This document shows positions 10,557-64,000 of a DNA stretch of 64,000 nt, in pieces; position 1 is the first letter of the stretch, and the number at the start of each line of letters is the position of its first letter. The position numbers and the translations under genes are program-made. The notes beneath the pieces are model-generated. The model had not been told where the DNA came from. It did no database searches and saw nothing but the letters and a program-made list of their open reading frames with translations. This DNA comes from Azolla caroliniana (lineage: Eukaryota; Plantae; Polypodiophyta): the NCBI GenBank assembly GCA_043228905.1, contig JBHGNT010000012.1, positions 20,584,001 through 20,648,000 on the forward strand, given 5' to 3'.

Positions 10557-10799
10557 CTGCAACATAAGAAAACACCAACATATTCACACTCACAAAGTAG
10601 CTAATAGTCTCACAAAACAACATAATGAACATAAAATATTCTGCAACAAAATAATAATATTATCTTAATATCCATCATAGAGTTCCATTACATAATATGG
10701 ATCAAGCAACAACCAATCTAAGGTTTTACTTGTCCAAATAGATCATAGAAAATCTTCATAATTTTCTAGGAAAATAACCAACAATCATATCCCACTAAT

Positions 10800-27953: not shown

Positions 27954-29733
27954 ATGGCTTCTTCCTCCCCCTCTTCTTCTTCTTCTTCTTCTTCCTTTTC
28001 TTCTTCTCCTCCTCCCTCTTCCTCGTCCTCATCCTCCTCCTCTTCGGAAATAGACCCCGCCGCGGCATGCTTTCACATGGTCTTATTCCCATACCCGATA
28101 ACGGGCCACATCCGGCCCCTAGTGAGCTTCGGTCATGCCCTCGTCGCCTCATATAGCAAATTTTCACCAAATAACCCTCACATTAACCAACCCCAACCCC
28201 AACCCCAACTAAGGATCACAATCATCCACACCGAGGCGAACCTCCACAACATTAGAAAACAGGATAGTAGTATCAATGAGAGCTCCCCCGGTGTCCGGGA
28301 CACAAACCAAGTTCACCTCCTCTCGATCTCCGATGGCCTCCCGCTAGACTTTGACCGAGCCGTGAATTACCCGGCTTTCTTCATGTCGATCCAACGGATG
28401 GGACCCGCATTGCTGGCGCGCCTGGCCGAGATCCGCTCGCAACACGGCCACATCTCGTGCCTCGTGTCAGACCCTAACTACCCATGGATCCTCGATCTCG
28501 CACGAAGCATAGACCTCCCCTGTCTCCTATTTGTTACTGACTCCGCATCGGCTTTCGCTGCCTCTTTATACGCTCGGCGGCTCCACAAGGAGGGGTTTAT
28601 CGGAAACAAAGGTAGGTAATTGTTGCAAGTACTCCCCAAGGAAGTAGAAATGTCTATTATATTGAAATCGTTGATTGATTGATTGAATTGAATTGAAACT
28701 TGGGGTCAATGTAGGCCCGCTTCCGGATCGACCGATCGATTTTATCCCGGGATTGCCGGGATTGCCAGCCGACGTTCTCCCCTTTCCACCCATCCAGCTT
28801 AGCGAATTCTTCTTCGAGCTCCGACTAAGCATGTACGACAAGGTCAGCGGGGCGGCCGGGATCCTCATCAACACAGTGTACGAGCTCGAGAAGGAAGTGA
28901 TGGATGGCATAAATATCCCGAGGCCGAAGCCAGAGGCATCTTCAGTGCCCATATTCGCGGTCGGGCCATGTGTGGAAGGGGCCGAGAGGTTGGGGTCATT
29001 GGCATGTTCGCTATCGTGTGGCGGCGGAGGGAGAGATATGGAGGAAGAAAGGCAGGTGTTGGCATGGCTAGATGGGAAGGAGGCAGGGAGTGTGGTATAC
29101 ATATGCTTCGGAACATTTGCCCGGCCAATGGACGAGGAGTCACGACAGATCGGGGCGGCGTTACGGGCGAGCCGCGTGCCATACCTATGGGCCGGCCAAC
29201 GCGGTAGCGTGCAACTTAAGCAAATCTTGGACATGAATGGTGATGATGAAGGAAAAGATGGTGAGGGATTAGTGGTGGAATGGGCACCCCAAACCGAGGT
29301 CTTGCGGCACCGGGCTGTCGGGGCATTCCTTACACACTGCGGTTGGAATTCGGTGATGGAGGCGACTATGGCCGGCACCCCGATGATATGCTTCCCGTTC
29401 GTGTTGGACCAACACATGTCATGCCGGCTTGTGGTCGACAAGTGGCGGACCGGCCTCCGCCTCGACCGCGGGCACGACCTCCGGCCACGCTTAACCTCCA
29501 TGCTTTCCCAACTCGTGCCACGTCCTGGTGCCCCGTGTTGTCCATGTCCGTGTCCAGTGAGAGCACGTGCACGGGAGCTCCGTCGCAAGCTTCTTGACAC
29601 GATGAGGACAAGGTCAAGGTCGAGTTGGGTGTCCATTGACAAGGACGATGAGGATAGTGAGGTAGTCGTGGGTAGGCCGGATTTAGTAACCAATGGCTTC
29701 CACGCCTTTCTCGACAACCTAACTTGTCATTGA
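27954..29733 (+). CDS. Family-1 UDP-glycosyltransferase (plant secondary-product UGT), 2 exons: 27954-28611 and 28715-29733, ~558 aa
   Basis: Catalytic-His motif HMVLFPYPITGHIRP, ISDGLP and CLVSD. PSPG box WAPQTEVLRHRAVGAFLTHCGWNSVMEATMAGTPMICFPFVLDQ. The phase-1 GT-AG intron 28612-28714 joins the two ORFs in frame. Ser-rich N-terminus. Confidence 0.93.
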
Positions 29734-33460: not shown

Positions 33461-33788
33461 CTAAGATTACAGGTATAGACTTAGGTTCTCGGACATATCA
33501 GCTTTGTTCGAGTCGGCAGGGTCCGAAGGCAGAAGACCGAACTGGTCGGGTCGGAACGGTTGAAGCCGATCATTAAGGAACTGATGTCGGTTGTCGGGAA
33601 CCATCCTGCTCTGTGTCCGGCTCTAAGATTACAGGTATAGACTTAGGTTCTCGGACATATCAGCTTTGTTCGAGTCGGCAGGGTCCGAAGGCAGAAGACC
33701 GAACTGGTCGGGTCGGAACGGTTGAAGCCGATCATTAAGGAACTGATGTCGGTTGTCGGGAACCATCCTGCTCTGTGTCCGGCTCTAA
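33461..33788. repeat. Perfect 162-bp tandem duplication in the copia 3' UTR
   Basis: ctaagattacagg...ctctgtgtccggct starts at 33461 and 33623, with tctaa microhomology at the junctions. Confidence 0.9.
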
Positions 33789-36700: not shown

Positions 36701-37800
36701 GGTACATGTCGGACATTGTGAAGTACGAGTGTAGAGCCACCTGCAAGGTTGAGCTCTACTGTGCCGATTCCGATGATGTCACAGTGTTGTGAGTTGCCGA
36801 CTCGAACTGAGTCGGAGTGACGGATCGTATATTGCCGAAATTGGGACCGATGAGGAGTCACGTGAAATGACGCGCCCGAATCTAAGAGCCATGTGCTCGA
36901 TTCTTCAGTCGTGAGTAGAACTTCTGATCCGACTGGATTTTCGATTGATAGTATATTCGGGTCGTCCGGTAGTACATCAGCTGAGGAGCTGACGTAATTG
37001 ATCTCCTCATGCCGGCCACTCTTCTTGTTGTTCTTGTTCTTGAGTGCACGGCAGTCGGCTTTGATGTGTCCGGGTTTCTTGCAATAGTTGCAGGTTCGGT
37101 TATCCCGTGACTGGCTCCGTCTTCGTTGATTGTTCGGCGGCCGTGAGGAATCTCTTCCTCGTATGTTCGATCGGTCTGTCGAACCTTGTACTACGTAAGC
37201 GTCGTCTGTTGAGTCTTTGGCGAAAGACTTTCTCCGAGCTGCTTCGGTCAGGATTGCGCTCGTGACTTCGGAGTATTTGACAGCCGTGGTTGACGCGTTG
37301 CACACGGTTGTGACGAAAGTTTCCCATGATGAGGGAAGGCTGCTCATGAGTATCATTGCTCTGAGTTCATCCTCGATTGCCGTCCCCTGTGACGAGATTT
37401 GGGAGCTTATGCTTTCGTACTCGTTGAGGTGTGCTTGAACCGAATCGAATTCTTTCATCCGCAAGTTGTAGAGGCGTCGGATCAGAAACATCTTCGTTGC
37501 GGCGACCTTCTTTTCGTAAGTGTCCGACAGTGTTTTCCACAGTTCGAATGCTGTCGTACACGATTGCACCGTAAAGTATACCGACTCCGATAGGTGCATC
37601 CGAATCGTGGCGCGGACGATTCTGTCCAGCTTCTGCCACTCAATTGGTTTGTATCCTTCTGGTGGTTCTTCATTTTCGATGGGATCGATTTGTCCCTTGA
37701 CTATGAGATAGTCCTGCATTTGCTCCTTCCAGAAGTTGAAGTTCGATCCATCGAACTTTCGTAGACTCATTTCTGATGAGCCGGATGTTGATGCCATCAA
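33785..37800 (-). CDS. Copia gag-pol polyprotein (gag, CCHC, protease, integrase, RT, RNase H) with one frameshift at ~34490
   Basis: ORFs of 1109 aa and 229 aa; CNYCKKPGHIKADC, WLLDSGAS, HSDVCG..TDNGGEF..E, YVDDML, YTDSDFAG..EAEY. Confidence 0.95.
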
Positions 37801-38555
37801 ATGCGGTTTCGGTTGACGAAGCTCGGTTCGGAGTTGACTACGAACCTTGTTGGAGTGCAGCCAGTTGGCTCACCCGATATCGTTCTAGTCGGATTTGAAC
37901 CCGAGTCGGTTCGGCTTCGGAACTTGCTCGAATTGACTCCGGTAACTTGAGGGACAGAACCGACTGGTCTTCCCGAATGTTGCCGAGTCGGAGTGAGCCT
38001 GGTTCGCTTCGGATATATATGCCGAATACCGATTATTGAAACCGATTATTTGGACCGATTCTGCTTCGGTTGACTGCAGCAACGGGAGAGACGGATCCAA
38101 CTGATCCTCCCGAATGTCGATCAGCCAGATGAAGCACGAATTTGGGGTTGTTGTCTTAAGACCGATCTGCACTGAGTGGTTACAACGAGCAGCGAGCAGC
38201 GTTCAACGAACTTTTCGGATGCCGTTTAACCGAATGGAGCACGATCGTGTCAATGATGCACAAGGGGATTTCACCTCGAGCGGTTACGATCACTGGGAAC
38301 GGAGTACAACCTGCTGGCTTACTCCAAACAAAGATGATCTAACGCGATGAGATGCAAACCTGGTTTTTCTTCTTCTTCTCTCTTCTTCGAATGACGCAGG
38401 AAACCGAATGCAGAGACGACGGCCGACAGCGGATTGAGGGACCGACTACTGTGCATGCTCTGATACCAGATGTTGGAAGTTAGGTCGTCAATGCGGAATG
38501 ATCGAGAAGCATTCAGTTCTGTTCTGTACCTGCGTATGACAGTTCGTAGGTCGTT

Positions 38556-47212: not shown

Positions 47213-50200
47213 ACTTAAGCCAGATAATGATAGCTGTAAAACAACTCCAACTTGAAAATGAAGCTCTTCGGAATTCTTTACGAGAACTTCAAGTCGGTGC
47301 CTCCCTATCCTCACAGTCCACGGAGCCTAGTGTCCCACCACAACCTAGCCCGGAGCCCATTTTTCTACCAACATCTGATCTAGCTTTCTCATTTTCTTGA
47401 GCCTAAGATTAGCCTCCCAGAAAAATTTGATGGAATGAGGTCACGTTTCCAATGTTTCATCACCCAAATTGGTCTAATCATTCGGCTACAACCTCAATGT
47501 TATGCAGATGGTTTTTGACAAGTTGGACTTGTGGGCACCCTCCTCTCCAATCCGGCCCTTTAGTAGAAACTTCGTCATCTCTATTGGAGGACTTTCCCAC
47601 CTTCCTCGCCGAGTTAGAGGCCACATTTGGAGAGACGGACTGAGGACGTACAACCCTCACCAAGCTTTATGCACTCGAACAAGGTTTGCGTGCAACTTCT
47701 GTCTATGCTTCAGAATTTTGACAACTAGCATGTGATGTCAACTGGGATGATCAAGCTTTAGCTTATCACTTTCGGCAAGGCCTTTGGAGCAATGTCAAGA
47801 ATCTTCTCTTGAACTTTCCCGAGCCCACCTCGTTATCCCAAGCGATTTCACAAGTAGTCCATTGTGACAATCATGTTTTTGAATTTTTCCAGGAAGAGCG
47901 CCAAACTTGGGGTTTGACTCATTCATTTCCATGACATGCCCCAGTCGTACAACCCCTAGTATCACTCCTGTCGGTGGCGTCACACTCCCCTTCTTTGGCA
48001 GATGCTCCAATACCAATGGAAATTGATCAAGCTTGATTTCGGCCATTGATGCCAAACGACAATTTCGAAGGGCTAATGGATTGTGCCTATATTGTGGTGC
48101 ATCGGGTCATCTCCTTCGCCATTGTCCTTGGAGTAATCGCCCACCATTCCATCGAGCCAACGGACCCCAACATCCGGAAAACGACATCGTCCGGTTGCAA
48201 TAGGAGCCATGCAACTGGACGTCTCCCGTCATCCACATTCTCGTGGTTCCATTTCTAGAATATCAAGCAATTTCATATTGGAGGTATGCCTTTCTTTTAA
48301 TTCCTGTTCCATTCAGCCTATTGCTTTACTTGATTCTGGAGCGTCTTCTTGCTTCATCAATGCATGACATTCACCCGAGCACATGGGATACTTGTCATGT
48401 CCCTCTCAAAACCCATTCCTGTTGAAGCCATTGATGGGTGTGCCCTCTCGTCAGGAGCAATTACCGAGACTACAATCTGATTAGGGCTTCGTGTGGGCTC
48501 CCACCAGGAGGAGCTCCCCTTTTGCCATATTGCATCGCCTCAACATCCAATTTTCTTAGGACTATCGTGGTTGGAGGCGCACAATCCAATAGTGGATTGG
48601 TGCAATCGCTCGCTCATATTTAGCGAGCCAGCATGCTCGCACACAACAATGAAGGTTAATTCAGTTTCACATTCTCCGGAGATGGTTGATTCCAACTTGA
48701 CCACACCACCCTTAGTTCATCACCTGCTCGTTGTTTGTGGAGCTACTTCTAACACACTTCACGCTATTCCCGAAAAGTATAAAGACTGTCCCGATATATT
48801 TGAGAAACATAATGCAGATCGTTTGCCCGAACACCGGCTCTACAACTGTCCCGTCGATGTTCAAGAAGGTACGTTGTCGCGTTATTATGCGCGTGCGTGG
48901 AGAAAGGCGGGACTAGGGAGTGACGGAGCGTAGGAAGTCGTGCTTCACCATTTCCGAGGCATCCTAGAAGCACACCGGAAGCAACCGAAGGGAGGGAGAC
49001 AGAGAGAGGGAGCGCACGCTTAACACCGACTCACGCACACACACGCACACACACACACACATGTCGACCCGACTCACGCCCTTATATACAGGAAATGCAG
49101 GAAAGGGAAAGCATCCGACACCAACAGAGACGCGAATATACACAGACAGACGCAAATGTATATATATAAAAGGAAGAATACATTCCCGGCTTCGAGCCGG
49201 ACCGAGGTAGGTTACAATAGTCGTCAGCTGCCAAGCCGCCGGTCGGGGAGCTCACGGGCTCGTCGCGCCGAGCGGGGTCTTGCGCAGGAGAGGAGCTGAA
49301 GCAAACCCTAAGCGAACACGAAGGGGGAGAGGAAGAAGAAGAAGAAAAGCAACTAACCTTAAATCTAACGGTATACCCTCTAACGCAAAATGGGCAACCC
49401 CTTTCACAAAGGGCGCTCCCTTCCTTTTATAGAACAAGGAGAGGGATGCGTTACAATGTGGGATAAATCCCGACTTACATGGGATCGTCTGTCCCGACTT
49501 GACTACTCTTCGGCGCCATAAAGGCGCCCTCGTTATTCACACTAAATGTACATGGGTGCGTACACACGCTGCACCCCGCCGATGTAGCCAATGTTTCCCG
49601 GTTTCCGCCTCTGGCCGAAATTCTTCACGAAATCCGCCCCCACCTAACTGCACGTCCACCGGTACGTGCCAAATCTGGTTGAAGGGTGAGAGATTTCGAC
49701 CGGTGAGAAACCGGTCTTCCGTAATCCGCATTCTGGCTCGCTGCTGGTTTGATCTGTCGGCTTCGGTTCTTCCTTTGCGCTTACCTCCCCGTTGGCTTGT
49801 TCGACCCGTCGATGGGTCCTCTGCCGCGATCTCCGTAGTACGCGTACTTCCGTTGGCCCTTGTTCGGCCGTATGAACGCCCCGCTCCCCGCCGTATGCCC
49901 GATGTCCTCCGCCGCCACCTTCCTTCTGCATGGTCTTACATTTCCGCGTCGGCTCGAACCGCCATGGTCTTCGAAACGGTGTGGAGGATCCCTTTTTTGG
50001 CCTTCTTCGCGCTACCTCCGAACCGCGCAAACTGTCTCCGCGCTCGCCTTCCCGCTCCGGCACCTTCGTGTGCCACGTACCCTCGTCCATTGTTTGGCAC
50101 TGCCTGTGCCGTACTCCGGTTCATTGCACGCCTTGTTGGCCCCCCTTTTCGGCCAGATTGTGCATCGCAGCTCACCCGCATACTAGTGTCCTTCGCATCC

Positions 50201-50704
50201 GAGGAACACCCCATAATAGCCCGCTTGGCCCTTCCCGTCTTCGTGCTGCTCCAACAGGTCCCGAGTCTTCCGCTTGCCGTTGTCCCCTCGCCCCCACCAG
50301 CTTGTCACCCGGGCTTGCCGTGTCAGTCTTCGCTACTTCGACGGAGCTTCCGACATCTACGAAGCGAGTGTGGAGGATCCTCCTCCGGCCTCTCTTGTCA
50401 TCCCCTGACTCCGACCCTGTGCAGTCCATTACGTCACCTCGTTCCCGACACCTCCCTTGTGCCGTCTTCCGCCCGCGCCGAACACCGTTCCGCAGTCACG
50501 CTTCGATCCGGCCCGCGATGGCCACTTGCGATACTCTTGTTTCGTCCTTTCCGGCCTGACACACCTCCCTGTCTTTACCCCTACCGGCTCCTTCCGAAAC
50601 CGTAACCGGCCGGTGAGGGTTTCACACTTCGTCCGCCCGTTTTACCGGCTCCCTATCCGCTACCCCGTGTCGTTAGGTCCCGTTCCCTGCCGCCACCGTC
50701 CTTC

Positions 50705-51730
50705 TCCCTAGGTCTCACGTTGCCACGTTGGCCGAACTGCCGGAGTCTCCGGATCGGTGTGAGGGTCCCATAGGACCGGACTCCGTTTCTATGCTTGCTG
50801 AAATTCGGGTGTCTTTTGTTTGAGTCCTTCCCTGACTCTCCTCGTGTCTTCCGCGTAGTCGGGTCCCGTTTCCCGCCGCCACCAACCTTCTCTCTTAGTC
50901 TCATGTTGCCACGTTGGCCGAACTGCCAGAGTCTTTGGTTAAGTGTGGGGATCCCGTAGGACCGGACTTCCTTACGCCCACTGACCTTGTCGGAAGGTCC
51001 GATTTGGTTCGTGGCCGCCTTGCCGGCCTAATACCTCCTTGCCGTTCGTCGCCTCCTGTCGGCCGATCACGTTCTCCTGCCGCCACCGATCTTCCCTATA
51101 GGACTCACGCCGGCTCTCGAGCCGACCGCCGGATCGGTGTGAGGATCTCCGTAGACCGCCCATCCGTAGCCCTTTTTCCCTTCGTCACCTCGCCACCACC
51201 GTCAGTATCTTGGTCTTACGTCAACTGCGTTGCCGACTGCCGAAGTCTCTAGAACCGGTGTGAAGGATCCTCCTTGGGCCTCCGTTTTGTCTTCTTGACC
51301 CTGTCCCGGGTCGTCCTTTTCCGGACGCCGAGAGGGCAGTTTACTCCGCACCCTCTCCCGTGGTACCGACGTACTGTCTCCTCGGCCTCTTTGTAGGCCG
51401 GCTCTTTTCCTCCCTCCTGGAATGGTCATCCGGGAGTCCGTTCCGCCCGGTTCTCGTCCGGGTCCGTCCGTCCTTCTCCGTATTGTCGGGTCCCGTTCTC
51501 TTGTCACCACCAGCCTTCTCCCTAGGTCTCACGTTGCCACGTTGGCCGAACTGCCGGGGCCTCTGGACTGGTGTGGGGATCCTGTAGGACCGGACTTCGT
51601 TCTCCTCTTCATCCCTTGTACTTCTCCCGAACTCGTCGCTTCTCTCCTTCTCGCGTACTTGCCTCCATCCTCCATCTCTTTCGGTCTCACGTTGCCACGT
51701 CGGCCGAACTGCCGAGGTCTCCGGATAAGA
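50705..51730. repeat. Dispersed GC-rich direct repeats within the gag-only element
   Basis: tctcacgttgccacgt.ggccgaactgcc at ~50713, ~50899, ~51527 and ~51686, with a degenerate copy at ~51215. Confidence 0.8.
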
Positions 51731-52006
51731 TGTGGCGTAACCGATTTCGCAACGTCTTTTTGCAACTCGTCCGGGCCACCGCCCCTTTTAGTGGTGTCGG
51801 TGGATAACATCTGCTCTGTGATCAATCAAGCCCCGCCTAAGCTTGATTCTCCAATGTCCGGAGTTTCGGCTCCAATGCCGATCTTGCCAGACTCATTCCG
51901 AACCTTTGATCACCTTCCTTTCCAATTCCCGACCTTCGCCTGGTCGGTCTTTCTCCCCATGTAAAAGAGGGCGGCTCGTCCCGCACCCTCTCCCGTATCG
52001 GCACCT

Positions 52007-53455
52007 TCATGCCGATTCTGGCCCCGATCGAACAATCCACGACCGGATCACGCTCCACCCGTACCAGAGCGTCGCGTGGTTCGGTCCCCGGTCTTGTCGT
52101 TCCTTGGTCTTCTTGTTGCCCCTTTCGTTGGCCATCTCCCATCCGTCTTCGCTGGCATCGTTCCAGGACTCCTCGGTACCGCCATCCATCTCCTCGGTCT
52201 TACAAGGGCATACGGGCCCGAATGCTGAGTTCTCCGGAATCGGGTCCGTCGGCTTTCGTCCGCTCTTTACCCGTATCGTCTCGCCGGTGATTCTTGGTCT
52301 TTCGCCACCGCCTTCCTCCGCCTGGGACTCACGTGGGCACTCGGGCCCGACTGCCATCGTCTCGGGAGCAAGTGTGGGAAGACACAAAGAATCGCCCGTC
52401 CGTTTTACGCCCTTGTCCGTAGCCACCGACTCTTTGTGGTCGGTGGTCGTCTTCTTACCGATCGCGCAAGCCCCGCCTGGGCTTGTTTCTCCGATTCCCG
52501 GGGTTTCGGGCTTACACGCCTGAAACCGCTGGTCCCAATGATCCGGTTCCGCGATCTGTATCTCGGCCTCGTCCTTGGCCGTTCTATCTCCGCAAGTCGA
52601 GAGGGCGTTTTGTTCCGCACCCTCTCCCGTGGTACCGTCGTACCGATCTTCCGCCGTCGCGTGGGGCAAGTCCGTCTCCTCAGTCTCGGCTTGCGGCCTC
52701 GATCTTTCCTCTTCCTCGAGCATCGCCTCGAGAGCTGCGTACGCCTCCGCAATCCGGGCCTCAACGCCGATCCTTGCCAACTCCCTTTGTCGTTCGGCCT
52801 CTTCCCGTTGTGATGGCACGCCGTTGCGCCCCTTCCTCTTAGCCTTCTCGGCTCGCTCATCATCTAGCCGTTGGCACACCCTTCCGACCTTCGACCAGTC
52901 CTCCGTAAGCCCATTCGCTCCGTCATCGTCTTCGAGCTCAATCCCGATGGCCTCGCGTTCCGCTCGGTCGATCGACCTGACGAACAACAGGACCATGTCC
53001 GCCCCCACCAAACCTTGTTCGAGCCGAGCAAGCCGTCGCTCGAACTCTCGGAACGCCTTGGTCGCGCCCCGATGGGTCTTTGCCGATGCTACCCACTGGT
53101 CGAAGTCGCGTCGTCCCTGGCTCTTCCGCTGTCCTCCGTATGCCTTCCGGAGCGCCTCTTCGAAGGCCTCCCACGAACTATGAGCCTCACGGAGCTCCTT
53201 TATTTCCGCATGCATCCGAATAGCCACGACCCGACAGAAGAACTCTAGCCTCAACGCCTCTTCTACGCCACGCTCCTCCATTTCCGCGTTGTAGGCTTCC
53301 AAGTAAGATGGGACTTTGTCCCCGTTGAAACGGTTGACTCTTTCGACCACTCGCTCAACCGCTTGTTGCGCTACTTCTCGCCTCATCACCACTCGTGCCG
53401 ACTCCAACACCACTTCGGCCACCATCTCTGCAAGGTCGTCGTCTTCCGACTCCAT
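52007..53455 (-). CDS. Gag-like protein, 482 aa
   Basis: Starts just downstream of the PBS; RFNGDKVPSYLEAY..SWEAFEEALRKAYG resembles a retrotransposon capsid. The C-terminus is low-complexity. Confidence 0.7.
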   Translation of the reverse strand: MESEDDDLAEMVAEVVLESARVVMRREVAQQAVERVVERVNRFNGDKVPSYLEAYNAEMEERGVEEALRLEFFCRVVAIRMHAEIKELREAHSSWEAFEEALRKAYGGQRKSQGRRDFDQWVASAKTHRGATKAFREFERRLARLEQGLVGADMVLLFVRSIDRAEREAIGIELEDDDGANGLTEDWSKVGRVCQRLDDERAEKAKRKGRNGVPSQREEAERQRELARIGVEARIAEAYAALEAMLEEEERSRPQAETEETDLPHATAEDRYDGTTGEGAEQNALSTCGDRTAKDEAEIQIAEPDHWDQRFQACKPETPGIGETSPGGACAIGKKTTTDHKESVATDKGVKRTGDSLCLPTLAPETMAVGPECPRESQAEEGGGERPRITGETIRVKSGRKPTDPIPENSAFGPVCPCKTEEMDGGTEESWNDASEDGWEMANERGNKKTKERQDRGPNHATLWYGWSVIRSWIVRSGPESA

Positions 53456-53470
53456 CCTCCCTTGCCGCCT

Positions 53471-53488
53471 TTCACGTCGGGTTCACCA
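53471..53488 (-). promoter_or_regulatory. Primer-binding site complementary to tRNA-Trp
   Basis: The plus strand TTCACGTCGGGTTCACCA matches the 3' end of plant cytosolic tRNA-Trp including CCA (from recalled sequence). There is a 4-nt spacer to the LTR. Confidence 0.8.
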
Positions 53489-54395
53489 AAGATGTTGCGT
53501 TACTACGCGCGTGCATGGAGAAACGAGGTGGGACCACCGGGGTCTTGAACCAAAGAGCAGGTGATAGAAGGGGAAAGAGAAAGAGAGAGATGCTCGGTTA
53601 CGTACGAGCAAAGAAACACAGGGACACGGCCCTGTCAACGCAGAAGACACGAATGGACACAGAGACAGAGAGACACGAATGTTTGTATATTAATGAATGA
53701 CAAATAAACAAGAGAGCATGGAGCGGCTACAACTGAACAGGCCGGCGAACAAATGTCGATGCCTGCTCGTCTGCGCACGAAAGGGGATAGGATGGAGGTG
53801 CTGCCAGAAGCACACGGGCGTTCCTCGAAGCAGCGCGAGCCTCCCGAAAACCTGTAGAGAAGAGCGATGGAGAACGAACAGAGGAGAAGCGTTCGGTTTC
53901 GGTCCGACAGCACTTCGTCCTCCTCCAAAATTTGATATCTATCTCCCCGCGTCTCCCTCTCTTTTATAGCTTCAAGAAGGGATCCGTTTCCCTCATTAAC
54001 TTCCTACCTACCGAATCTAACTACCTAGGATATACACTTGTACCTAATTTTCTATTATACACATTAAAGGGCGCGCACGCGTGAAGAGCCGGTTCACGCG
54101 CGCTATGCACCGATTGCGCTAAGGGACGGTTTTCTTCACGACAACGTGTCCACCCTTTGGTCCTATATATGCATTGTCTACACCAGAGCTAAAGGCCCTT
54201 TGAGTGTATCTCGATGAGAACCTCGTGAAAGGATTTATTCAACCTTCTAAGTCGCCAGCTGGGGCCCCCATATTATTCGTGAAGAAGAAGGACAACTTTC
54301 TATGCTTATGTGTAGACTATCGAGGTCTCAACAAACTCACCGTGTGCAACCGCTATCCACTCCCTTTGATTCCCGAACTCCTCGACCGGCTCCGT

Positions 54396-54502
54396 TGTCG
54401 CATTGTTATGCGTGTGTGTATAGAACGAGGCGGGACCACGAGGGTCTTGGACCGAGGAATAACCGAGCAAGAGTAGGAGCAAGGAAGACAATGTTTGTGC
54501 TT

Positions 54503-54545
<43 letters not shown>

Positions 54546-55097
54546 TACACAGAAACCGCAACCGAATGAAACAACGGAAACGAGACGAATGCGTATACGT
54601 ATATATATATACTCTGATGAAAAAGGGGTTACAACCGGCAAGCCAGTGAGCGACAAATCTCCTACGCCTATGCACACACACATAGAAGAGCGAGATGGAG
54701 ACTCCACCGGAAGCACTCGGGCGTTCCGCAGAGCAGAGTCAGCCTCCCGAAAACCTGCACAGAGCAAATACAGAGAAAGACGGAGGAGAAGAGCTCGGTC
54801 CTAGTCCGACAGCACTTCGTCCTCGACAAAAGTGATCCCCATTACAATTCCTCTCCCTCTCTTTTATAGCCCAAGGAGGGAGGCCATCACAACCCGTTAC
54901 ATCATCTTTATTCTCTGTCCTTTCGGACAGAGATACACCTTGATTTTCTACCTAACAAATGCGTGCTACCTAGGATATTCACATCAACCGACTTGTACCT
55001 AGATATATACATTACAACAAAACTTGTGCCTACATATAAGGGCTAGTTCACGCACATTATTCTCCGATTCCGCCTAGGGACGGTTTTCTCCACGACA
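54396..55097 (-). repeat. 3' LTR of another element of the same gypsy family; its internal region continues at 55098-55132 and 63882-64000
   Basis: TGTCGTGG...GCGACA on the minus strand, similar to LTR 53493-54143. PPT AGGTGGGGGTAGA lies at 55098-55110. Confidence 0.8.
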
Positions 55098-55679
55098 TCT
55101 ACCCCCACCTGACCGTGCATTCACCGGTATGCGGGTAAAAGCATGCGAGTGGAAACACTATTATAGCTAATTAGCTACTAAAATGGCCATAGCTAATTAG
55201 CTATTTGTTTAGCTAGTCTTTTTTGTGGGAAAATCAAATATTTGAAAAACTAATTTATGAAAAAACTCAAATATTTGAACTTCTATTTCAGACGTAGTGG
55301 AACTTGGGGAATAGCACCATCATCTAAGGTCGACTTCAATGTCATCAATTTCCTGTTTAGCCTAAGTCTGATTTTGAATGCAGATGGAGTACTCAGAGCA
55401 CGAACGCAGACGTAGCTCCCGCAACAACAGAAAATCGACATTGTAGATTGAGAGCTACAACACAGAACCCGCTCGATCATCGTCCAGGTATGTTTCAGTT
55501 ACAGAAACCCCAAACATTTGTTTTTTCTTTTTTACTATTGTCTGAACTTTGGTGCCGATTCATATTTCCCCAAAATCGAATAGGGCGAAGTCTTTGGAGT
55601 CCCATACAAGGATGTCTCGCAAATCGGGGAGTAGCAACAGGTGTGTTTATATTACTTTTTTTGTGTTTAATCCTGTCTT

Positions 55680-56240
55680 TAGTGATGATTGGGGTTTCTG
55701 ATTGAAATTTCTGATTAGGGTTTTTGTTTATAAATTTCTGATTAGAATTTCTGATTAGGGTTTGTGATTGAAATTTCTGATTAGGGTTTCTGATTAGGGT
55801 TTTTAATTATAAATTTCTAATTAGAATTTCTGAATAGGGTTTCTGGTTACAAATTTTGATTATAGATTAGAATTTCTGAATAGGGTTTTTGTTTATAAAT
55901 TTCTGTTTAGGATTTCTGATTAGGGTTTGTGATTGAAATTTCTGATTAGGGTTTCTAATTTAAATTTTTGATTAGGGTTTTTGATTATAAATTTCTGATT
56001 AGAATTTCTGAATAAGGTTTCTGGTTACAAACTTCTAATTACAGATTTTGATTAGGGTTTCTGATTTCAAACTTCTGATTACATATTTTGATTAGGGTTT
56101 CTGATTTCAAATTTCTGAATACAAATTATGATTAGGGTTTCTGATTTGCTAAGTTAAAGATTTTGCACCATTTTTGTTGTTGTTGATTGGGGTTTCTGAT
56201 TCTCACATATTCTGATTTTGCACTATTTCTGATTTCTGAA
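55680..56240. repeat. Intronic minisatellite of TTCTGATTAGGGTT (telomere/telo-box-like)
   Basis: Many degenerate copies of gattagggtttctg / aaatttctgattag, confined to intron 1 of the cargo gene. Confidence 0.9.
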
Positions 56241-57584
56241 ATGATATTTCAGATGGCTCATTCCTCCGTATACGAGAGTGCTAAACTTCGCAAAATTTTG
56301 TGGGACAAAGGAGGACTTCCACAACACCTATGGTCTGTCACTCGAGGGTGTTGACCCTGCTGTCCTAAGTGATAAATTGATCAGTGATGTAGACTGGATG
56401 ACAGTATATACAGTGCCTAGAGTCAAAGGCAAGGTCAAGCTGAAGCATGTACGAGCCGACTTGTACGATGACTGCATGAGACTGCACCAGAAAGTTCATC
56501 AGGAGATCCCATTCAACAATGAGTTGTCAGTTTCATTTGCTAGAGCATTTGCATATGAGTACTGCAAAACAGCGAAGGAATCCAGAGACCCTGAAATGTG
56601 TAGGGTAGCTTGGGCAGTCTATGGTGAGACATCGGTAAAAAGATGCCGAAAGATGGGGACCTTGGCACAAAAAATAGACAGATTTTGGAGCATGGCAGCT
56701 GTTGATGCAACTACCGACTCCCAGCAAGACCGGGGGCATACACCACACCGACACCCAAGGAAAGCCAATGTCGATGATACAGGTGAGACATTGGTTAGCT
56801 ATATGCTAAAAAATGTCCATGAAGCCTGTGAGACATTGGCATTTTTTAAGACTGATTTAGAGAAAGCCACAATGGCTTCTGCAATGGAGAGCAAAGTTAC
56901 TTCTGTTGTTACAACAATTAGAAATAAGATTCAGGTAACTATTGTTTTGCTGGTATGTGATTGTGTTATAAATAACGGGTAAAATGTGCTAATCAAGCAT
57001 TATCTGGAATAGGTTGCGCAACAGGAGCTTGAATTAGAGGGGCCACTGGATCCCCAACGTAAAATAGAACTGCAAATAGAGATCCCGGTTCTTTCAATGA
57101 ACCTGGACCTTCTAGGTGTAAATACTGTTGCAGATTACAATTTGGATAAGGTTCAAGTAAGTTAACGATTCCTGAGCAAAGTTGGTGTATCTTTCAACAA
57201 CAAGAATAATTAATCGGTAAATTTCTCTGTTGCGTTGAAGGAACAACACATTCATCAAGAACAGGTAGTTAGCTGCCTTAAGAAGCAACTACATTTTGTG
57301 GATGGAATGGTAAGCACTAGACAGGATTTGGACCTGAACATTCTTGCTCCCTTACCAAATGAAGTAGAACCAGAAAATGATTTATTGACAGTTCAAGCAC
57401 GTTGCATCGCTTGCGGGTTAGGTGTGGAGGACAAAACTGCGTCTTTGTTGGTTCACCTACAACCATGCAACCACACATACCATCTGCTTTGTTTTCAACA
57501 TGCCTGTCGAATTGCTGCATTCTGTTTGGGAGATTGCAGTACAGCTCTACCAAATGAGTGGAGAAAACTAACAGGTATACCATA

Positions 57585-58985
57585 CTGTAGCTAATAAGCT
57601 TAGTCTTTTCTAATTAGCTATCCTACTAGCTAATTAGCTACTGGCAGCTAATGAGCTACTAGCTAATTAGCTATGGTACTAGCTAATTAGCTAGTACCAT
57701 AGTTGTGTAAAAAAGCTAATTAGCTATCCTACTAGCTAATTAGCCACTGGCAACTAATTAGCTATCCTAGTAACTAATTAGCTACTACCATAGTTGTGTA
57801 AAGTAGCTAATAAGCTATCCTAGTAGCTAATTAGCTACTAGCAGCTAATTAGCTATCCTAGTAGCTAATTAGCTACTGGCAGCTAATGAGCTACTAGCTA
57901 ATTAGCTATCCTAGTAGCTAATTAGCTATCCTACTAGCTAATTAGCCACTGGCAACTAATTAACTATCCTAGTAACTAATTAGCTACTGTCATAGTTGTG
58001 TAAAGTAGCTAATAAGCTATCCTAGTAGCTAATTAGCTACTGGCAGCTAATTAGCAATCCTAGTAGCTAATTAGCTATGGTACTAGCTAATTAGCTAGTA
58101 CCATAGTTGTGTAAAAAAGCTAATTAGCTATCCTACTAGCTAATTAGCTACTGGCAACTAATTAGCTATCCTACTAGCTAATTAGCTATCCTACTAGCTA
58201 ATTAGCTATCATAGTAGCTAATTAGCTACTGCCATAGTTGTGTAAAGTAGCTAATAAGCTATCCTAGTAGCTAATTAGCTACTGGCAGCTAATTAGCTAT
58301 CCTAGTAGCTAATAAGCTATCCTAGCTACTACATAGTTGAGAAAGTAGCTAATTAGCTTTCATTGTAGCTAATTAGCTATCCTAGCTACTACCATAGTTA
58401 GTAAAGTAGCTAATTAGCTATCCTAGCTACTACCATAGTTAGTAAAGTAGCTAATTAGCTATCCTAGCTACTACTATAGTTGAGTAAAATAGCTAATTAG
58501 CTATCCTAGCTACTACCATAGTTGAGTAAAGTAGCTAATTAGCTACCATAGTAGCTAATTAGCTATCCTAGCTACTACCATAGTTAGTAAAGTAGCTAAT
58601 TAGCTATCCTAGCTACTACCATAGTTGAGTAAAGTAGCTAATTAGCTATCCTAGCTACTACCATAGTTGAGTAAAGTAGCTAATTAGCTACCATAGTAGT
58701 TAATTAGCTATCCTAACTACTACCATAGTTGACTAAAGTAGCTAATAAATTAGCTATCCTAGCTACTACATAGTTGAGAAAGTAGCTAATTAGCTATCCT
58801 AGCTACTACCATAGTTGAGTAAAGTAGCTAATTAGCTATCCTAGCTACTACCATAGTTGAGTAAAGTAGCTAATTAGCTATCGTACTAGCTAATTAGCTA
58901 TCCTAATTAGCTATCATACTAGCTAATTAGCTATCCTAGCTTCTACCATAGTTTAGTAAAGTAGCTAATTAGCTATCCTAAATAG
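57585..58985. repeat. Intronic array of the palindrome TAGCTAATTAGCTA with higher-order units
   Basis: Dozens of copies lie between the donor at 57575 and the acceptor at 59002. ~40-bp units (tcctagctactaccatagttgagtaaagtagctaattagcta) occupy the distal half. Confidence 0.95.
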
Positions 58986-59663
58986 CTGCCATGTTATTGT
59001 AGAATCTGGTGGATTAAGGACGGCACATGATGTGTCTGGTGTTGATGATGCTGCAACAGATGAGGATATTACTGCCAACGTGGCTGAAAGTAAGAGTCCT
59101 GTTATCACATCTCCTTCAGATCAGCTCCACCCTATTCTTTTGGAACAGTGTACTGAATTAGGCAACGATGTGAAATGCCATGAAATAGTGGAAAAAACAT
59201 GTAAAACTGAGGTTCACAACAACAGTGTTTATGAACACTTGATGCAACATTTCTTCGAGTCTGAAGACCTTGATTCAAACCCCACCGAGCCCAACTACTG
59301 AAAATGTCCAAACAGATCACTCTGTACTTGAAAAGCTAGTTCAAGAAACGGCTGATGTGCAATTAGCTGTTGAGGCGATGGGAAGGTTGTCGGAGGAGGA
59401 CACACTTGCGCATTGGGTGAAAGAAGCAAGGCTAAATGGGGAACCAACCAGAAAAAGGCTGAAGAAGGGGCCACGATCGGGAACAAGACCAGTTACTCGG
59501 TCAAGGGGCCCAGACGTAGTGGAGCGAAATACTGTTTAGTTGGATATGATTGCTAGCTTAGGGATTTTGCTAGGGTTTTATGAAGTTTTACTATCCTGTT
59601 GGACAAGTAAAACCTCAGATTGGTTGTTGCTTGATCCACATTATGTAATGGAACTCTATGATG

Positions 59664-62600
59664 TTGCTTGATCAACCTGGAATAACCGCGAACAACATGC
59701 AGAGATCGCAATTCGGGAATTCCTTGGCACTCCCAGGTCTTCTCCCTATTTACTTCATCTATCTTCACTTCCCAAAATTCACGTTTGATATCTCAGACTT
59801 GCGAGGAATAAACACTTGTGGCACTTGTTGACATATTTGTTCTTAAAAATTCAACTACATGTGATGCACAATTCATGTGCACACCATCTGTCTTTAGTTA
59901 TTCATGGGTAAGTGCCCGCTTTATAACAGCCCCTGCACCATCATGTTCACCTTTACCATGGCCAGACCCAAAAAAATTCCATCTCATCTCCAAACCTGTT
60001 ATAGCAGGATACCTCCCCACAAAATAAAATGGACGTCGAGCCTTGAATTGTGACACAGCTCCGTCAGACCAGACCCAATGTTGAGTAAGCTCGAAACGTT
60101 GAGCTAATAACCACTGCCAATGTAACTTAAAACAATGTTGGACGAACAAGGTATCATGCTTCTTATCATCGGAAATAAAGAAATGAATTACTTTTTTAAC
60201 ATCACCTGAAACTCGAAAATATGTTATGTGCACAAAAATGGTTACCTGAACTGAACACCAATGCATAGATTGAATTTCATTCTGTTGCATGAAAGTATAA
60301 TTCTCTGCGAAATCTACTACTGAGACTACTACATCATTTGGGAAATCAGATATGCAAGTCTTAAACTGATGGGCCTGCCATGAATAAATGAAGTTGTGTT
60401 TAATGAACTTTCCTAGAGATACTACAAACAGAGACACCAAATCCCTTGGTTTAAGCATCTTCCGAACTAGATCCTTTCTTTTACACACCTTTCCTTCGAA
60501 ATTGGTGTTCACTGACTCAAATAACTTCACAGAGATCAATATTTCACTACTCAATTCATTTGGACACCACCTAAATCTAGTAGGGCCACAATCTTGACAT
60601 AAACCCATGACACATTTATGAATATGGAAGATAGCGTCAGTTTCTCTCGGACACAATATTGAATCTAATAAATAACTCATGGAAGAGATAACGTGCTTAG
60701 ATGATTTACACTCCTCTTGCGGGCTTGATCGACAGATTGGGCACCCACATGTGCAAACTGTATTAGTTAGGGATGCGCTATGGTGACGTAGTAGATTAAC
60801 AGAGTCCTTCAGAAAACCCATCTGTACATGGTAAATGCAACAACATGTGTATCGATCCTTTAAGCGTCTCACAAAGTGTGGCTTAAGAGACTCGAATGTT
60901 CATAGTTGAACTTTGATAGTTGGATGCATTCGTTTGAACCTAATAAATAAATCGACCTACGTAATAAAGGGGAATTAGTTATTCTCGTAACTAGCTAACT
61001 ATCCTAGTAGCTAATTACCTATTCTAGTAGATAATTAGCTATCATGGTAGCTAATTAGTTGTCCTAGTAGCTAATAAGCTATCATGGCAGCTAATTAGCT
61101 GTCGTAGTAGCTAATTAGTTATCATGGTAGCTAATTAGCTGCTCTAGTAGCTAATTAGCTATCATGGTGGCTAATTAGCTTTCCTAGTAACTAATTAGCT
61201 GCTCTAGTAGCTAATTAGCGGGTCTAGTAGCTAATTAGCGGGTCTAGTAGCTAATTAGCTATCATGGTGGCTAATTAGCTGTCCTAGTAACTAATTAACT
61301 ATCATGGTAGCTAATTAGCTGGTCTAGTAGCTACTTAGCTATAATGGTGGCTAATTAGCTGTCCTAACTAATTAGCTATCATGGTAGCAAATTAGTTGGT
61401 CTAGTAGCTAATTAGCTATCACGGTGGCTAATTAGCTATCCTAGTAAGCTAATTAGCTATCATGGTAGCTAATTAGCTTTCCTAGTAGCTAATTAGCTGG
61501 TAATAACGAAATAGCAAACTAGCTACCAGTACAACTAATTATCTGGTAGTACCTAAATTAGCTATTGAGAATAGCTAATTAGTTATCATGGTAGTAGCTA
61601 TTGAGAGTAGCCAGTTACCTATGTAGTAACTATCATAGTAGCTAATTAGCTATCATGGTAGCTAATTAGCTTTCCTAGTAGCTAATTAGCTGGTAATAAC
61701 GAAATAGCTAACTAGCTACCATGATAGCTAACTAGCTACCAGTACAGCTAATTATCTGGTAGTACCTAAATTAGCTATTGAGAATAGCTAATTAGCTATC
61801 ATGGTAGTAGCTATTGAGAGTAGCCAGTTACCTATGTAGTAGATATCCTAGTAGCTAACTGAGGTAAATGTAACTGATAAGTTAATTAGCTTTTCTGCTA
61901 ACTGAGCTAATTAACTTTCCGAGTAGAGTCAAAACAAATGTTGAGATAAATGTAAATACCTGAGGTACATCAAGAAGATGAATGGGATGCTCCTCGTATT
62001 GATTTCTTCCAACACGTTTCCTGCATAAATCCTTTTTATTGGGTGAAACCCTACTCTCATTAGTCCAAAACATTGTGATTACATCCTTGATTTCAAATGT
62101 TATGGGTGTCATTGGCTTACATCTTGTAGTTAGCTTTAGTAGACTAGTTCCTTCACCCGAGGAAATTATACGGTTCATTGTATTGTACACTGTTTTTCTA
62201 CTAACACCAATTACCTTAGATAGCTCACTGATGTTTATATCGTCAACATCACTATTAAGTAACATCATTAGACTAGACCTTTTTAAGACAAGATCATCTT
62301 CTGACCTGCTCATGGATACGAAACTATTACGAAGATTATTTACTAAAATAGATGATATGTTTGCATTAAGACCATCACAATCAACTAAGTCCTTTATCGA
62401 TGGATCATTACATATTCCATAAAGTACTACCTTCTTTTCTTCATTGCTGATGTGCTTGGTTTGAACATTGAAATAGTCTACAACCTTTCTCTCTATGATG
62501 GTAGTCGCATTACTTACATTCTCAGCTAAACTATCCTTACCTTTACTGAGTGTGGCTTTCGTATCCTTCAACAATTGACGATGTTTCCTTTTTTTTTCTG

Positions 62601-62709
62601 CCCAATAGTTTCGTATGGCTTGTTGTGTCCTGATAACATCATCCCTATCCTTATGATCATTGAGGGGTAATTCTAAACACCCTTCTTCCCCTTCCATTTG
62701 GTTGGACAT
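59664..62709 (-). pseudogene. Sola2-type DDD transposase, 2 coding exons (62709-61960, 60956-~59664), with point stops and a 3' truncation
   Basis: FESLKPHFV..TCCCIYH, VVDFAENY..QNEIQSMHW..QVTIF, ISDDKKHD, WSDGAVSQFK, WNFFGSGHGKGEHDGAGAVIKR. The phase-0 intron splices in frame. Stops at ~60901, ~59899 and ~59794 are consistent with C>T changes. Confidence 0.85.
60985..61915. repeat. TAGCTAATTAGCTA array filling the transposase intron
   Basis: ~20-bp periodic units (gctaattagctatcatggta / gctaattagctg.tctagta) plus a duplicated block (~61450-61630 vs ~61640-61840). Confidence 0.95.
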
Positions 62710-62839
62710 GTTAAAACCCTAAATTTCCAGAAAAAAAAACAAGTATTAAAGATGGCTATGGGCAACAACAATACACAAAAATATTCCACAATACACAAGA
62801 TTAGACACAACAATACACAAGATAATCAATAGACAGAAA

Positions 62840-63530
62840 AGTTATTGCAATCCAAGACCGAACACTAGAGGATTTCACTCCGTTGGATCGAACAGTTGAG
62901 GAGGCGATCCAAGACCGACCAATGGCAACAACTGAGTGTAGAATGTTGCCGTTGGATGAGTGAACTCCGTCAAATCGAAATGTGGAAGCAATCCGGGACT
63001 GGACAGTAGCGGCAACTGAGTATAGAATGATGGCAATGGAGGAGAGAACCCCGTCAGATTGAACAGTTACCGATGATGCTTGGAACGCACATAGAAGGCA
63101 CTTGAGAGTAGAGTGGCACAGAGAAGAGAACCCTGTCAGATTGAACAGTTACCAATGATGCTTGAAAGGCACAGTAGCGGCCCCTGAGTGAGAGTGGAAA
63201 AGAGAAGAGAACCCCGTCAGATTGAATAGCTCTTTGATGATGCTTGGAACGCATAGTAGCGGCCCCTGAGTGTAGAGTGGCAAAGAGAAGAGAACCCCGT
63301 CAGATTGAATAGCTCTTTGATGATGCTTGGAACGCACAGCAACGGCCCCTGAGTGTAGAGTGGCACAGAGAAGAGAACCCCGTCAGATTGAACAACTCTT
63401 TGATGATGCTTGGAATGCACAGTAGTGGCCCCTGAGTGTAGAGTGTCACAGAGAAGAGAACCCCGTCAGATTGAGCAACTCTTTGATGATGCTTGGAATG
63501 CACAGTAGCGGCCCCTCAGTGTAGAGTGGC
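62840..63530. repeat. 83-bp tandem repeat (about 6 good copies plus degenerate ones) upstream of the transposase
   Basis: gagaaccccgtcagattgaa...tgatgatgcttggaa.gcacagtagcggcccctgagtgtagagtggc. The ORF starts recur every 83 nt. A related degenerate array lies at 8128-8430 in copy A. Confidence 0.9.
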
Positions 63531-64000
63531 GGTAGGTGGACTCGATAGGGTTTAGCAACAATGGTAGCAACTAACCCACAGTACTCAACTAGAGATGGCC
63601 TACGTGATGTGGCAAAGGATCATGCATAATAGACCTAGGAATTCGATATATAATTTATGGTACACATTTATGGTGCACACCAATTTATGTTGCACATTTA
63701 TGGCACTCATTTACATATGTAATGAAAACACTCTAGTATTTTCAATGGTAGTTTTTTGCATACTTAATTTATTAATGATGGCTTTTTACTAAAATGACTA
63801 TTTATCAATGGTAGCTTTGTGCATAGCTAATTAGCTATGTCAAGGACATAGCTAATTGTTTCCACTCGCATGCTTTCACCCATGCGCCTAAATAGACTGT
63901 TGCCGGAGAAGACCGGCCCACGCCTACCCTTCGTCCTCCGGATTGCCATTCACCCCGAACCGGTCATCCTCGTGCCGCTTTTTGAACGCTTTGATCCTTT

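What the first reader, a model, noticed from the sequence alone, without database searches (positions are those of the whole stretch)
55133..63881. Sola2-type DDD transposon with a spliced transposase and a convergent cargo gene in a plant genome
Seen: 25-bp TIRs starting GGG, a 4-bp TSD, and an intron-containing transposase with three candidate catalytic Asp (DFAENY / SDG / HGKGEHDG). Established: GRG termini, a 4-bp TSD and this motif set fit Sola2, which was described mainly from animals and protists. The plant Sola elements I recall are Sola1-type. Inference: this is a poorly characterised plant Sola2 lineage with a two-gene layout, which standard CACTA/hAT/MULE libraries would likely miss.
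Basis: partly seen in the sequence, partly recalled or inferred. Interest (0 to 1): 0.85.

Follow-up and report, generated by a model that had tools for sequence, protein, structure and literature searches.

The report
Fern Sola2 transposon with accessory gene
This is a broken copy of a young, many-copy Sola2 jumping-gene family in a plant (likely a fern) whose intact copies carry a second, conserved gene with a RING finger and a predicted dead phosphatase domain, and that gene's protein likely binds repeat arrays inside the element and would help it resist host silencing.

Summary
The 25-bp TIRs and ATGC TSD are real. The TIR has 553 exact matches in the genome, and 32 of 32 paired copies have a 4-bp TSD. 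The spliced 863-aa transposase matches the published Sola2 alignment along its length, with D(83)D(41)D spacing. The window copy is dead: three stops and a ~2.3-kb deletion. Four of 32 copies keep all eight tested exons open. The convergent gene is not random cargo: orphan N-domain, coiled coil, RING-H2 and an FCP1/UBLCP1-like domain lacking the catalytic DxD (deleted in the window copy). It is under purifying selection, spliced in one run, matched in one Adiantum protein, and lies convergent to distant Sola2 transposases. Family-specific tandem arrays fill the introns, as in VANDAL/VANC. Best reading: an accessory anti-silencing factor (mechanism about 40%, untested); a transposition cofactor is the main rival. 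Sola2 in plants is not new: two conifer genome papers list it. I found no description of this two-gene layout in print. The scan already noted what is probably the same family on other DNA of this genome (e1-10618503).

The parts
55129..55132 (.). left target-site duplication ATGC
   Evidence: 32 of 32 paired copies have a 4-bp TSD
55133..55157 (+). left TIR, 25 bp, starts GGG
55164..55203 (.). two subterminal copies of the 14-bp palindrome TAGCTAATTAGCTA
   Evidence: sequence; motif counts
55384..55487 (+). accessory gene exon 1 (ATG; premature stop at codon 21 in this copy)
   Evidence: donor supported by a spliced contig in run X1
55584..55640 (+). accessory gene exon 2 (57 nt, in frame)
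   Evidence: found through spliced joints in run X1
55641..56252 (.). intron with AT-rich ~13-bp repeats
56253..56934 (+). accessory gene exon 3: orphan N-domain (first ~140 codons, dN/dS 0.10) and start of predicted coiled coil
   Evidence: no Pfam match above cut-off and no PDB match
57013..57156 (+). accessory gene exon 4 (predicted coiled coil)
   Evidence: preceding intron spliced in X1
57241..57574 (+). accessory gene exon 5 with RING-H2-like finger
   Evidence: Cys/His pattern in sequence; weak Pfam RING hits below cut-off; match to Adiantum proteins; dN/dS 0.37
57575..59002 (.). intron filled by a tandem array of the TAGCTAATTAGCTA palindrome; 0.87-2.1 kb in 24 of 25 copies measured (one 6.4 kb with an insertion)
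   Evidence: splice inferred from phase only
59003..59539 (+). exon B1, low-complexity linker or alternative last exon (one frameshift in this copy); use uncertain
   Evidence: dN/dS of the distal 145 codons 0.77, CI includes 1
59665..59673 (.). junction of a ~2.28-kb internal deletion with a 7-nt filler; removes the FCP1/NIF-like exon and the transposase C-terminus
59673..60956 (-). transposase exon 2 (truncated): Cys-rich region and RNase H-like DDD core, Asp codons at 60314, 60065, 59942; stops at 60902, 59900, 59795
60957..61959 (.). transposase intron with tandem array of the same palindrome
   Evidence: join supported by homologues
61960..62709 (-). transposase exon 1 with an HTH-like segment
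   Evidence: Pfam HTH_11 E=6.5e-5, just below cut-off
63039..63530 (.). 83-bp tandem repeat upstream of the transposase
63824..63837 (.). subterminal palindrome at the right end
   Evidence: sequence
63857..63881 (-). right TIR, 25 bp
63882..63885 (.). right target-site duplication ATGC

Best explanation
This is an internally deleted, dead copy of a young Sola2 cut-and-paste transposon family of a plant (likely a fern), whose intact 10-12 kb copies carry a spliced DDD transposase and a convergent, conserved accessory gene that likely encodes a VANC-like self-protection factor. Shown: TIRs, 4-bp TSDs, copy number, Sola2 motifs, open frames in some copies, purifying selection on the accessory gene, and its presence beside distant Sola2 transposases. 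Predicted from structure: an RNase H-like D465-D548-D589 core. Inferred from established DDE chemistry: the transposase binds the ends through its N-terminal HTH region, excises the element and inserts it with a 4-nt stagger at AT-rich sites. Inferred and untested: the accessory protein's orphan N-domain binds the family's own palindrome arrays in the introns and near the ends, the coiled coil oligomerises it along the array, and the RING-H2 finger and catalytically dead FCP1/UBLCP1-like domain recruit or remove host chromatin or transcription proteins so that the element is transcribed in spite of silencing. Odds by step: Sola2 95%; functional accessory gene 90%; anti-silencing through the arrays about 40%.
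For: Family: 553 TIR matches; 32 of 32 TSDs; 30 of 32 copies within 0.12-3.3% of the consensus; 10 of 32 with both transposase exons open and 4 of 32 with all eight tested exons open. Sola2: eight of nine short motifs read from the published alignment match at the expected place and in order (the ninth, a loose C..C pattern, hit an earlier Cys cluster), and spacing 83/41 equals my hand count for Sola2-2_HM. Model pLDDT 87; integrase, IstA and Mos1 cores at Z 9.7-10.1, rmsd 3.0-4.3, 144-169 aligned. Accessory gene: three GT..AG introns spliced in run X1; dN/dS between young and old subfamilies 0.10 (N-domain), 0.37 (RING exon), 0.35 (NIF domain), each with 95% CI below 1; Adiantum nelumboides MCO5553172.1 holds N-domain, coiled coil, RING and NIF in one protein; convergent NIF ORFs behind transposases 45-49% identical (L095, L097); the RING-H2 pattern gives 7 hits in 80 metagenome loci, 6 downstream and convergent, 0 upstream; 7 of 17 families with at least 2 kb downstream show a convergent accessory part. 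NIF domain: Pfam PF03031 E=2e-7 above cut-off, UBLCP1 best by profile (E=1e-14) and by fold; none of 42 aligned rows keeps DxD. Arrays: 7 of 8 transposase introns examined hold tandem arrays (one is this same family), with a different unit in each family; VANC targets form tandem repeats in introns and upstream of the transposase gene (PMC5735166 section 9).
Against: No DNA-binding fold was found for the N-domain: no Pfam or PDB match and only a weak Atlas lead to SWIM clusters (0.91, 137 features shared); it was not folded. The copies show C-to-T change at 2.75% of CG and 3.15% of CHG sites against 0.31% at CHH, so they have been methylated. The palindrome also sits just inside both TIRs, where a transposase site is expected. 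L101 has the accessory gene but no array in its transposase intron; I ran no control on host introns. Ten of 17 families with at least 2 kb downstream showed no accessory part, and L093 showed no NIF within 2.4 kb. The N-domain link between the fern group and the distant group is only suggestive (HH probability 38.7%, E=3e-4). The splices into the NIF exon and across the transposase intron have no RNA support here. X1 is only guessed to be RNA, is one study, and matches relatives of the copy laid.
Confidence: 0.55

Rival explanations
1. The accessory protein is a transposition cofactor, like the DNA-binding partner of Harbinger or TnpA of CACTA (both recalled): it or the transposase binds the palindrome at the ends to build the transpososome, and the intronic arrays are extra sites that titrate or regulate it.
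For: The palindrome lies 7-46 bp inside the left TIR and about 20-33 bp inside the right TIR. The N-domain is as constrained as the transposase core (0.10 against 0.17). The copies carry a methylation footprint.
Against: RING-H2 and a phosphatase-like domain are not needed for end synapsis. Animal and amoeba Sola2 elements are described with the transposase alone or with Fanzor cargo (PMC3627910 passage). 53 of 56 exact motif copies in the consensus are deep inside introns.
Confidence: 0.27
2. The arrays are minisatellite expansions of a transposase-binding motif and have nothing to do with the second gene; the accessory protein works at protein level, as a RING ligase or phosphoprotein decoy that controls the transposase or a host factor.
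For: Array length varies freely among near-identical copies. The nearest solved relative of the NIF domain is UBLCP1, recalled as a proteasome phosphatase. L101 lacks the array.
Against: Arrays recur in the same intron in six other families with unrelated units, more than drift would suggest, though no control was run. The most conserved part of the protein is the orphan N-domain, not the RING.
Confidence: 0.2
3. The second gene is a passively captured host fragment (Pack-type cargo) with no role for the element.
For: FCP1-like and RING domains are common host domains; the distal B1 and linker segments are not distinguishable from neutral.
Against: dN/dS 0.10-0.37 with CI below 1, retained introns, the same domain order in Adiantum and a convergent position beside distant transposases.
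Confidence: 0.04
4. The transposase belongs to another group (Sola1/DUF7869, Sola3, Zator) or to a new superfamily.
For: No Repbase or Dfam profile could be run; the Atlas lists DUF7869 clusters from rank 4.
Against: Motif-by-motif match to the Sola2 alignment; no Pfam DUF7869 hit although a separate DUF7869 family in this genome scores about 180 bits and has other motifs; 0 of 32 TSDs are TTAA.
Confidence: 0.03

Closest known systems
Sola2 DNA transposons (Repbase group; alignment in PMC3627910 Additional file 10, read whole)
   Same: All conserved motifs from the N-terminal R-x-x-P-x-K-K block to HGK-x3-DG, Asp spacing 83/41, 4-bp AT-rich TSD, short TIRs.
   Different: 10-12 kb, one large intron in the transposase, a convergent multi-exon accessory gene, intronic palindrome arrays, and a plant-clade C-terminal domain that my profile did not find in the animal homologues.
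Sola-2 in conifer repeat annotations (Cryptomeria PMC11539532, table passage; Cupressus bioRxiv 10.64898/2026.07.23.736688, section 7)
   Same: Sola2 is abundant in a plant genome.
   Different: Only coverage figures in the text I saw; no element structure or accessory gene. Cupressus Table 3 is an image, and the supplements and repeat libraries were not seen.
VANDAL/VANC anti-silencing Mutator-like elements of Arabidopsis (PMC5735166, abstract and section 9)
   Same: An extra TE-encoded gene; short motifs in unstable tandem repeats in introns and upstream of the transposase gene; motifs differ among related families.
   Different: Other superfamily; no DUF1985 or DUF287 match; binding and demethylation untested here; RING and pseudophosphatase domains.
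Sola1-1_Ec32 of Ectocarpus (PMC12477816, passages)
   Same: A large Sola element with an accessory gene on the opposite strand, proposed to act on its own DNA.
   Different: Sola1, not Sola2; its accessory protein is a ParB-like domain plus amino-methyltransferase, unrelated to this one.
FCP/SCP/UBLCP1 (NIF, PF03031) phosphatases
   Same: Pfam hit above cut-off, fold match to UBLCP1, Tim50 and SCP1.
   Different: Motif I reads E-L-D-K (D-x-N/Q in most relatives) instead of D-x-D-x-T, and motif IV reads D-T-E: predicted inactive.

Membership tests
Sola2 | DDD transposase with the Sola2 motif set and spacing | tested here: met
   Motifs read from PMC3627910 Additional file 10 match in order; D465-D548-D589, spacing 83/41, equal to my hand count for Sola2-2_HM. 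Comparison by short patterns and by eye, not by profile.
Sola2 | 4-bp target-site duplication | tested here: met
   32 of 32; 73% AT, AWWT 1 of 32; feature stated in PMC3627910 and PMC10741241 passages.
Sola2 | TIRs beginning 5'-GRG (rule recalled; the original paper was not held) | tested here: met
   All 32 copies begin and end GGG/CCC; copies were found with that pattern, so only the position of the boundary, fixed by the TSD, is an independent test.
Sola2 | RNase H-like catalytic fold | tested here: met
   Model pLDDT 87; integrase, IstA and Mos1 cores Z 9.7-10.1.
Sola2 | Clusters with Repbase Sola2 transposases in a tree or profile search | not testable with these tools
   No Repbase or Dfam library; my tree (51 of 52 rows) holds only database homologues, four of them named.
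Sola1 (DUF7869-type; the link between DUF7869 and Sola1 is recalled) | PF25273 match and its motif set | tested here: not met
   No hit; a separate family in G000 scores about 180 bits; HH probability 0.06% against one member.
Sola3 | TTAA target (recalled) | tested here: not met
   0 of 32.
VANC-type anti-silencing system | Family-specific motifs in tandem repeats in non-coding regions | tested here: met
   7 of 8 introns examined hold arrays, units differ by family; no host-intron control.
VANC-type anti-silencing system | VANC domains (DUF1985, DUF287) | tested here: not met
   No such Pfam hit in any exon. This excludes VANC membership, not a similar way of working.
VANC-type anti-silencing system | Accessory protein binds the motif and causes loss of methylation | not testable with these tools
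   Needs binding and methylome experiments; the copies show a CG/CHG methylation footprint.
FCP/SCP (NIF) phosphatase | NIF fold | tested here: met
FCP/SCP (NIF) phosphatase | Catalytic DxDx(T/V) motif | tested here: not met
   ELDKV in both subfamilies; UBLCP1 shows DIDYT. The need for both Asp is established knowledge, recalled.
BAH domain (transposase C-terminus) | BAH fold and sequence signature | tested here: inconclusive
   8 of 50 VIA rows are BAH-containing chains over residues ~477-595, Z 5.8-6.7, rmsd 2.7-3.8, 79-96 aligned; no sequence support (HH 1.3%). The domain was not folded alone.

The most novel reading that the evidence does not exclude
Streptophyte Sola2 transposons have kept, across fern and more distant plant lineages, a dedicated accessory protein that reads family-specific tandem arrays in the element's own introns and brings a RING ligase and, in ferns, a dead CTD-phosphatase-like decoy to them, while the transposase ends in a BAH-like chromatin reader. 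This would be an independently evolved, sequence-addressed anti-silencing system outside the Mutator superfamily, built from look-alikes of host silencing modules such as BAH-PHD-CPL2 (seen only in a search listing), with a young family of hundreds of copies to test it on.
Probability: 0.3. Interest if true: 0.85.

Novelty: new variant of a known kind. Interest (0 to 1): 0.52.

Why it matters
Sola2 makes up tens of megabases of conifer genomes in repeat tables, yet I found no structural description of a plant Sola2 element. This family gives one: ends, target preference, gene models and four copies with all tested exons open, so transposition can be tested directly. If the accessory protein binds the arrays and relieves silencing, sequence-specific anti-silencing, so far shown for Arabidopsis VANDALs, would have arisen again in another superfamily with other domains, and sister families with different arrays would offer natural protein-target pairs. 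If it is a cofactor instead, it would be a second gene needed by a Sola element.

Tried and rejected
Original Sola paper and Yuan and Wessler 2011 were not held, so the GRG and TTAA rules are recalled. Ten paper searches found no description of a plant Sola2 with a RING/FCP1-like accessory gene or a BAH-tipped transposase; Repbase Reports, Dfam, most subscription journals, bioRxiv supplements and repeat libraries were not searchable and may hold one. No RNA holder on record was listed. The second read lay did not cover the splices into B1 or the NIF exon or the transposase intron; X3 laid nothing. BAH by sequence gave nothing. Foldseek on the whole transposase gave only weak RNase H-family hits, NurA first. 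P0161 alone found nothing in the PDB. The N-domain found no named relatives beyond Adiantum, and the fern-group profile alone did not reach the distant loci. No TIR-plus-TSD pair was found in the metagenome loci. A search of G000 with a sister-family transposase returned only this family. My first model, two separate plus-strand genes, was dropped after the Adiantum protein showed all domains in one chain; how B1 is used stays open. Sequence look-ups of earlier findings gave nothing. No complex prediction was sent.
Full report
1. Observation. The element runs from 55133 to 63881, with 25-bp TIRs that differ at one base and an ATGC duplication. The TIR pattern occurs 553 times exactly in the 523-Mb genome, the reversed control 0 times. 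Of the first 100 listed matches, 62 form 31 inward-facing pairs, each with one left-type and one right-type end. I fetched all 31. With the window copy, 32 of 32 carry an exact 4-bp duplication; mismatched flanks agree at 0.8%. The duplications are 73% AT, AWWT in 1 of 32, TTAA in 0 of 32, with a weak symmetric preference in the flanking bases. Twenty copies are 10-12.2 kb, five are longer through insertions and six are shorter. The window copy has lost about 2.28 kb at 59665/59673, which takes away the transposase C-terminus and the last exon of the second gene, and it has three stops in transposase exon 2 and one in exon 1 of the second gene. It is dead. The family is young: 30 of 32 copies lie within 0.12-3.3% of the consensus, the window copy at 1.44%. 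Ten of 32 keep both transposase exons open; four of 32 keep all eight tested exons open (the 57-nt exon was found later and not in that test).

2. Transposase. Two exons give 863 aa in the consensus. The join is supported by homologous proteins that run across it, not by RNA. The published Sola2 alignment (PMC3627910 Additional file 10, read whole) shows the same blocks in the same order. Eight of nine short patterns taken from it match at the expected place; the ninth is a loose Cys pattern. The three Asp are 83 and 41 residues apart, equal to my hand count for Sola2-2_HM. A model of a 97%-identical database protein (pLDDT 87) aligns to integrase, IstA and Mos1 cores at Z 9.7-10.1. Pfam gives no family for the core, as stated for Sola in PMC5751038 (passage). 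A separate DUF7869 family in the same genome has different motifs and no profile similarity. In a tree of 51 of 52 rows (one dropped as too short), the query lies in a 38-row clade (99/95) with the Klebsormidium and Ceratodon proteins, apart from Mytilus and Liolophura. Only four rows carry names and the root is a midpoint, so this points to an old streptophyte lineage but does not prove it. Residues ~477-595 of the model align to BAH-containing chains in 8 of 50 rows (Z 5.8-6.7), without sequence support: a lead only.

3. Second gene. The first three introns are spliced at GT..AG in contigs of run X1, which also revealed a 57-nt exon (one study, RNA status guessed, relatives of the copy laid). 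The exon deleted from the window copy matches Pfam NIF above cut-off; all 30 Atlas hits are NIF; profile and fold searches put UBLCP1 first. Its first motif reads ELDKV, and none of 42 aligned rows keeps DxD, so it is predicted to be inactive. All six named clusters among the ten looked up are from Ceratopteris or Adiantum, which is the basis for 'likely a fern'. One Adiantum protein, MCO5553172.1, matches the N-domain (E=1.6e-23), the coiled coil and RING (1.6e-11) and carries NIF, so these exons form one gene. The RING exon joins in frame to either B1 or the NIF exon; the direct join gives 778 aa. Against a majority of 11 older copies, dN/dS is 0.10 for the N-domain (CI 0.05-0.19), 0.37 for the RING exon (0.19-0.73), 0.35 for NIF (0.21-0.57) and 0.17 for transposase exon 2; distal B1 (0.77), the linker (0.53) and the rest of exon 3 (0.46) have intervals that include 1.

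4. Linkage elsewhere. In 80 metagenome loci with related transposases, L095 and L097 have a convergent NIF ORF right behind the transposase (phmmer with the fern exon alone, E=2e-17 and 3e-10; Pfam). A RING-H2 pattern hits 7 times: 6 downstream and convergent (four families), 1 downstream on the same strand, 0 in 193 kb upstream. A conserved N-terminal domain precedes it in five families and resembles the fern N-domain (HH probability 38.7%, E=3e-4, 86 columns; control 1%). Seven of 17 families with at least 2 kb downstream show some part of the gene; ten do not, and many of those loci are short or decayed.

5. Arrays. The palindrome TAGCTAATTAGCTA stands just inside both TIRs and in long arrays in one intron of each gene (56 exact copies in the consensus, 3 of them subterminal). 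Array length varies widely among near-identical copies. Seven of eight transposase introns examined in related loci hold tandem arrays; one is this family, and the other six have different units. L101 has none, and no host-intron control was run. In Arabidopsis, VANC binds motifs in unstable tandem repeats in introns and upstream of the transposase gene (PMC5735166 abstract and section 9). Against a fully effective anti-silencer, the copies show CG and CHG transitions about nine to ten times the CHH rate.

6. Mechanism. Cut-and-paste by a DDD transposase with a 4-nt stagger follows from the TSDs, the fold and established chemistry. For the accessory gene I favour a VANC-like role (about 40%): the N-domain reads the array and the RING and dead phosphatase act on host proteins. 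A transposition cofactor (27%) or a protein-level regulator unrelated to the arrays (20%) remain open. Passive cargo is nearly excluded. No binding, activity or methylome data exist here.

7. Novelty. Sola2 in plants is already in print as a repeat class: 56.7 Mb in Cryptomeria (table passage) and the top DNA transposon superfamily in Cupressus (section 7). Unspecified Sola is reported in Azolla and Ceratopteris (passages); reviews name Physcomitrella Sola1 or Sola (passages) and say Sola is absent from angiosperms analysed (passage). An accessory gene in a Sola1 element is known from Ectocarpus (passages). Other passages read: PMC4455052, PMC3985635, bioRxiv 2021.09.26.461848. My ten searches found no account of this layout; Repbase, Dfam, repeat libraries and bioRxiv supplements were not visible and may hold one. 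Verdict: a real Sola2 member with an undescribed, conserved two-gene design; new variant of a known kind; interest 0.52.

Noticed in passing
window ~8128-13717 (-): A second, older copy of the same family (exons 75-89% identical to the young consensus) with an exact left TIR at 13717, most of the transposase deleted and no right TIR found; it ends in a Copia-like fragment.
   Followed up: partly
window 27906-29733 (+): Host UDP-glycosyltransferase gene in two ORFs (Pfam UDPGT E=9.5e-23).
   Followed up: no
window 663-3350 (+), 33785-37869 (-), 18915-19985 (+), 49400-54800: Gypsy-like and Copia-like retrotransposon ORFs; the Copia-like one at 33.8-37.9 kb has long open frames. Labels are from the look of the sequence, not from a family search.
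   Followed up: no
L077-L088: Five copies of 15-25 kb carry large nested insertions with retrotransposon-like ORFs yet keep both TIRs and the TSD.
   Followed up: no
G000, e.g. L206-L209: A separate high-copy DUF7869-type transposase family, many copies with 927-aa open frames; earlier scan notes tie a Sola-like family here to a ParB-methyltransferase gene, which I did not check.
   Followed up: partly
P0001 residues ~477-595: Transposase C-terminal domain is conserved across the plant clade, was not found in the animal homologues and resembles BAH domains by structure only.
   Followed up: partly
consensus 3' region between the two genes; L171:1985-2494: A 255-bp unit between the converging 3' ends occurs in one to four copies by gap length in different elements.
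   Followed up: no
P0031: An animal-side homologue has a weak OTU-like protease match at its C-terminus (E=0.039), so other Sola2 branches may carry other ubiquitin-related domains.
   Followed up: no
window 59666-59672: The 7-nt filler at the deletion junction repeats a sequence about 40 bp upstream, as templated repair would leave.
   Followed up: no
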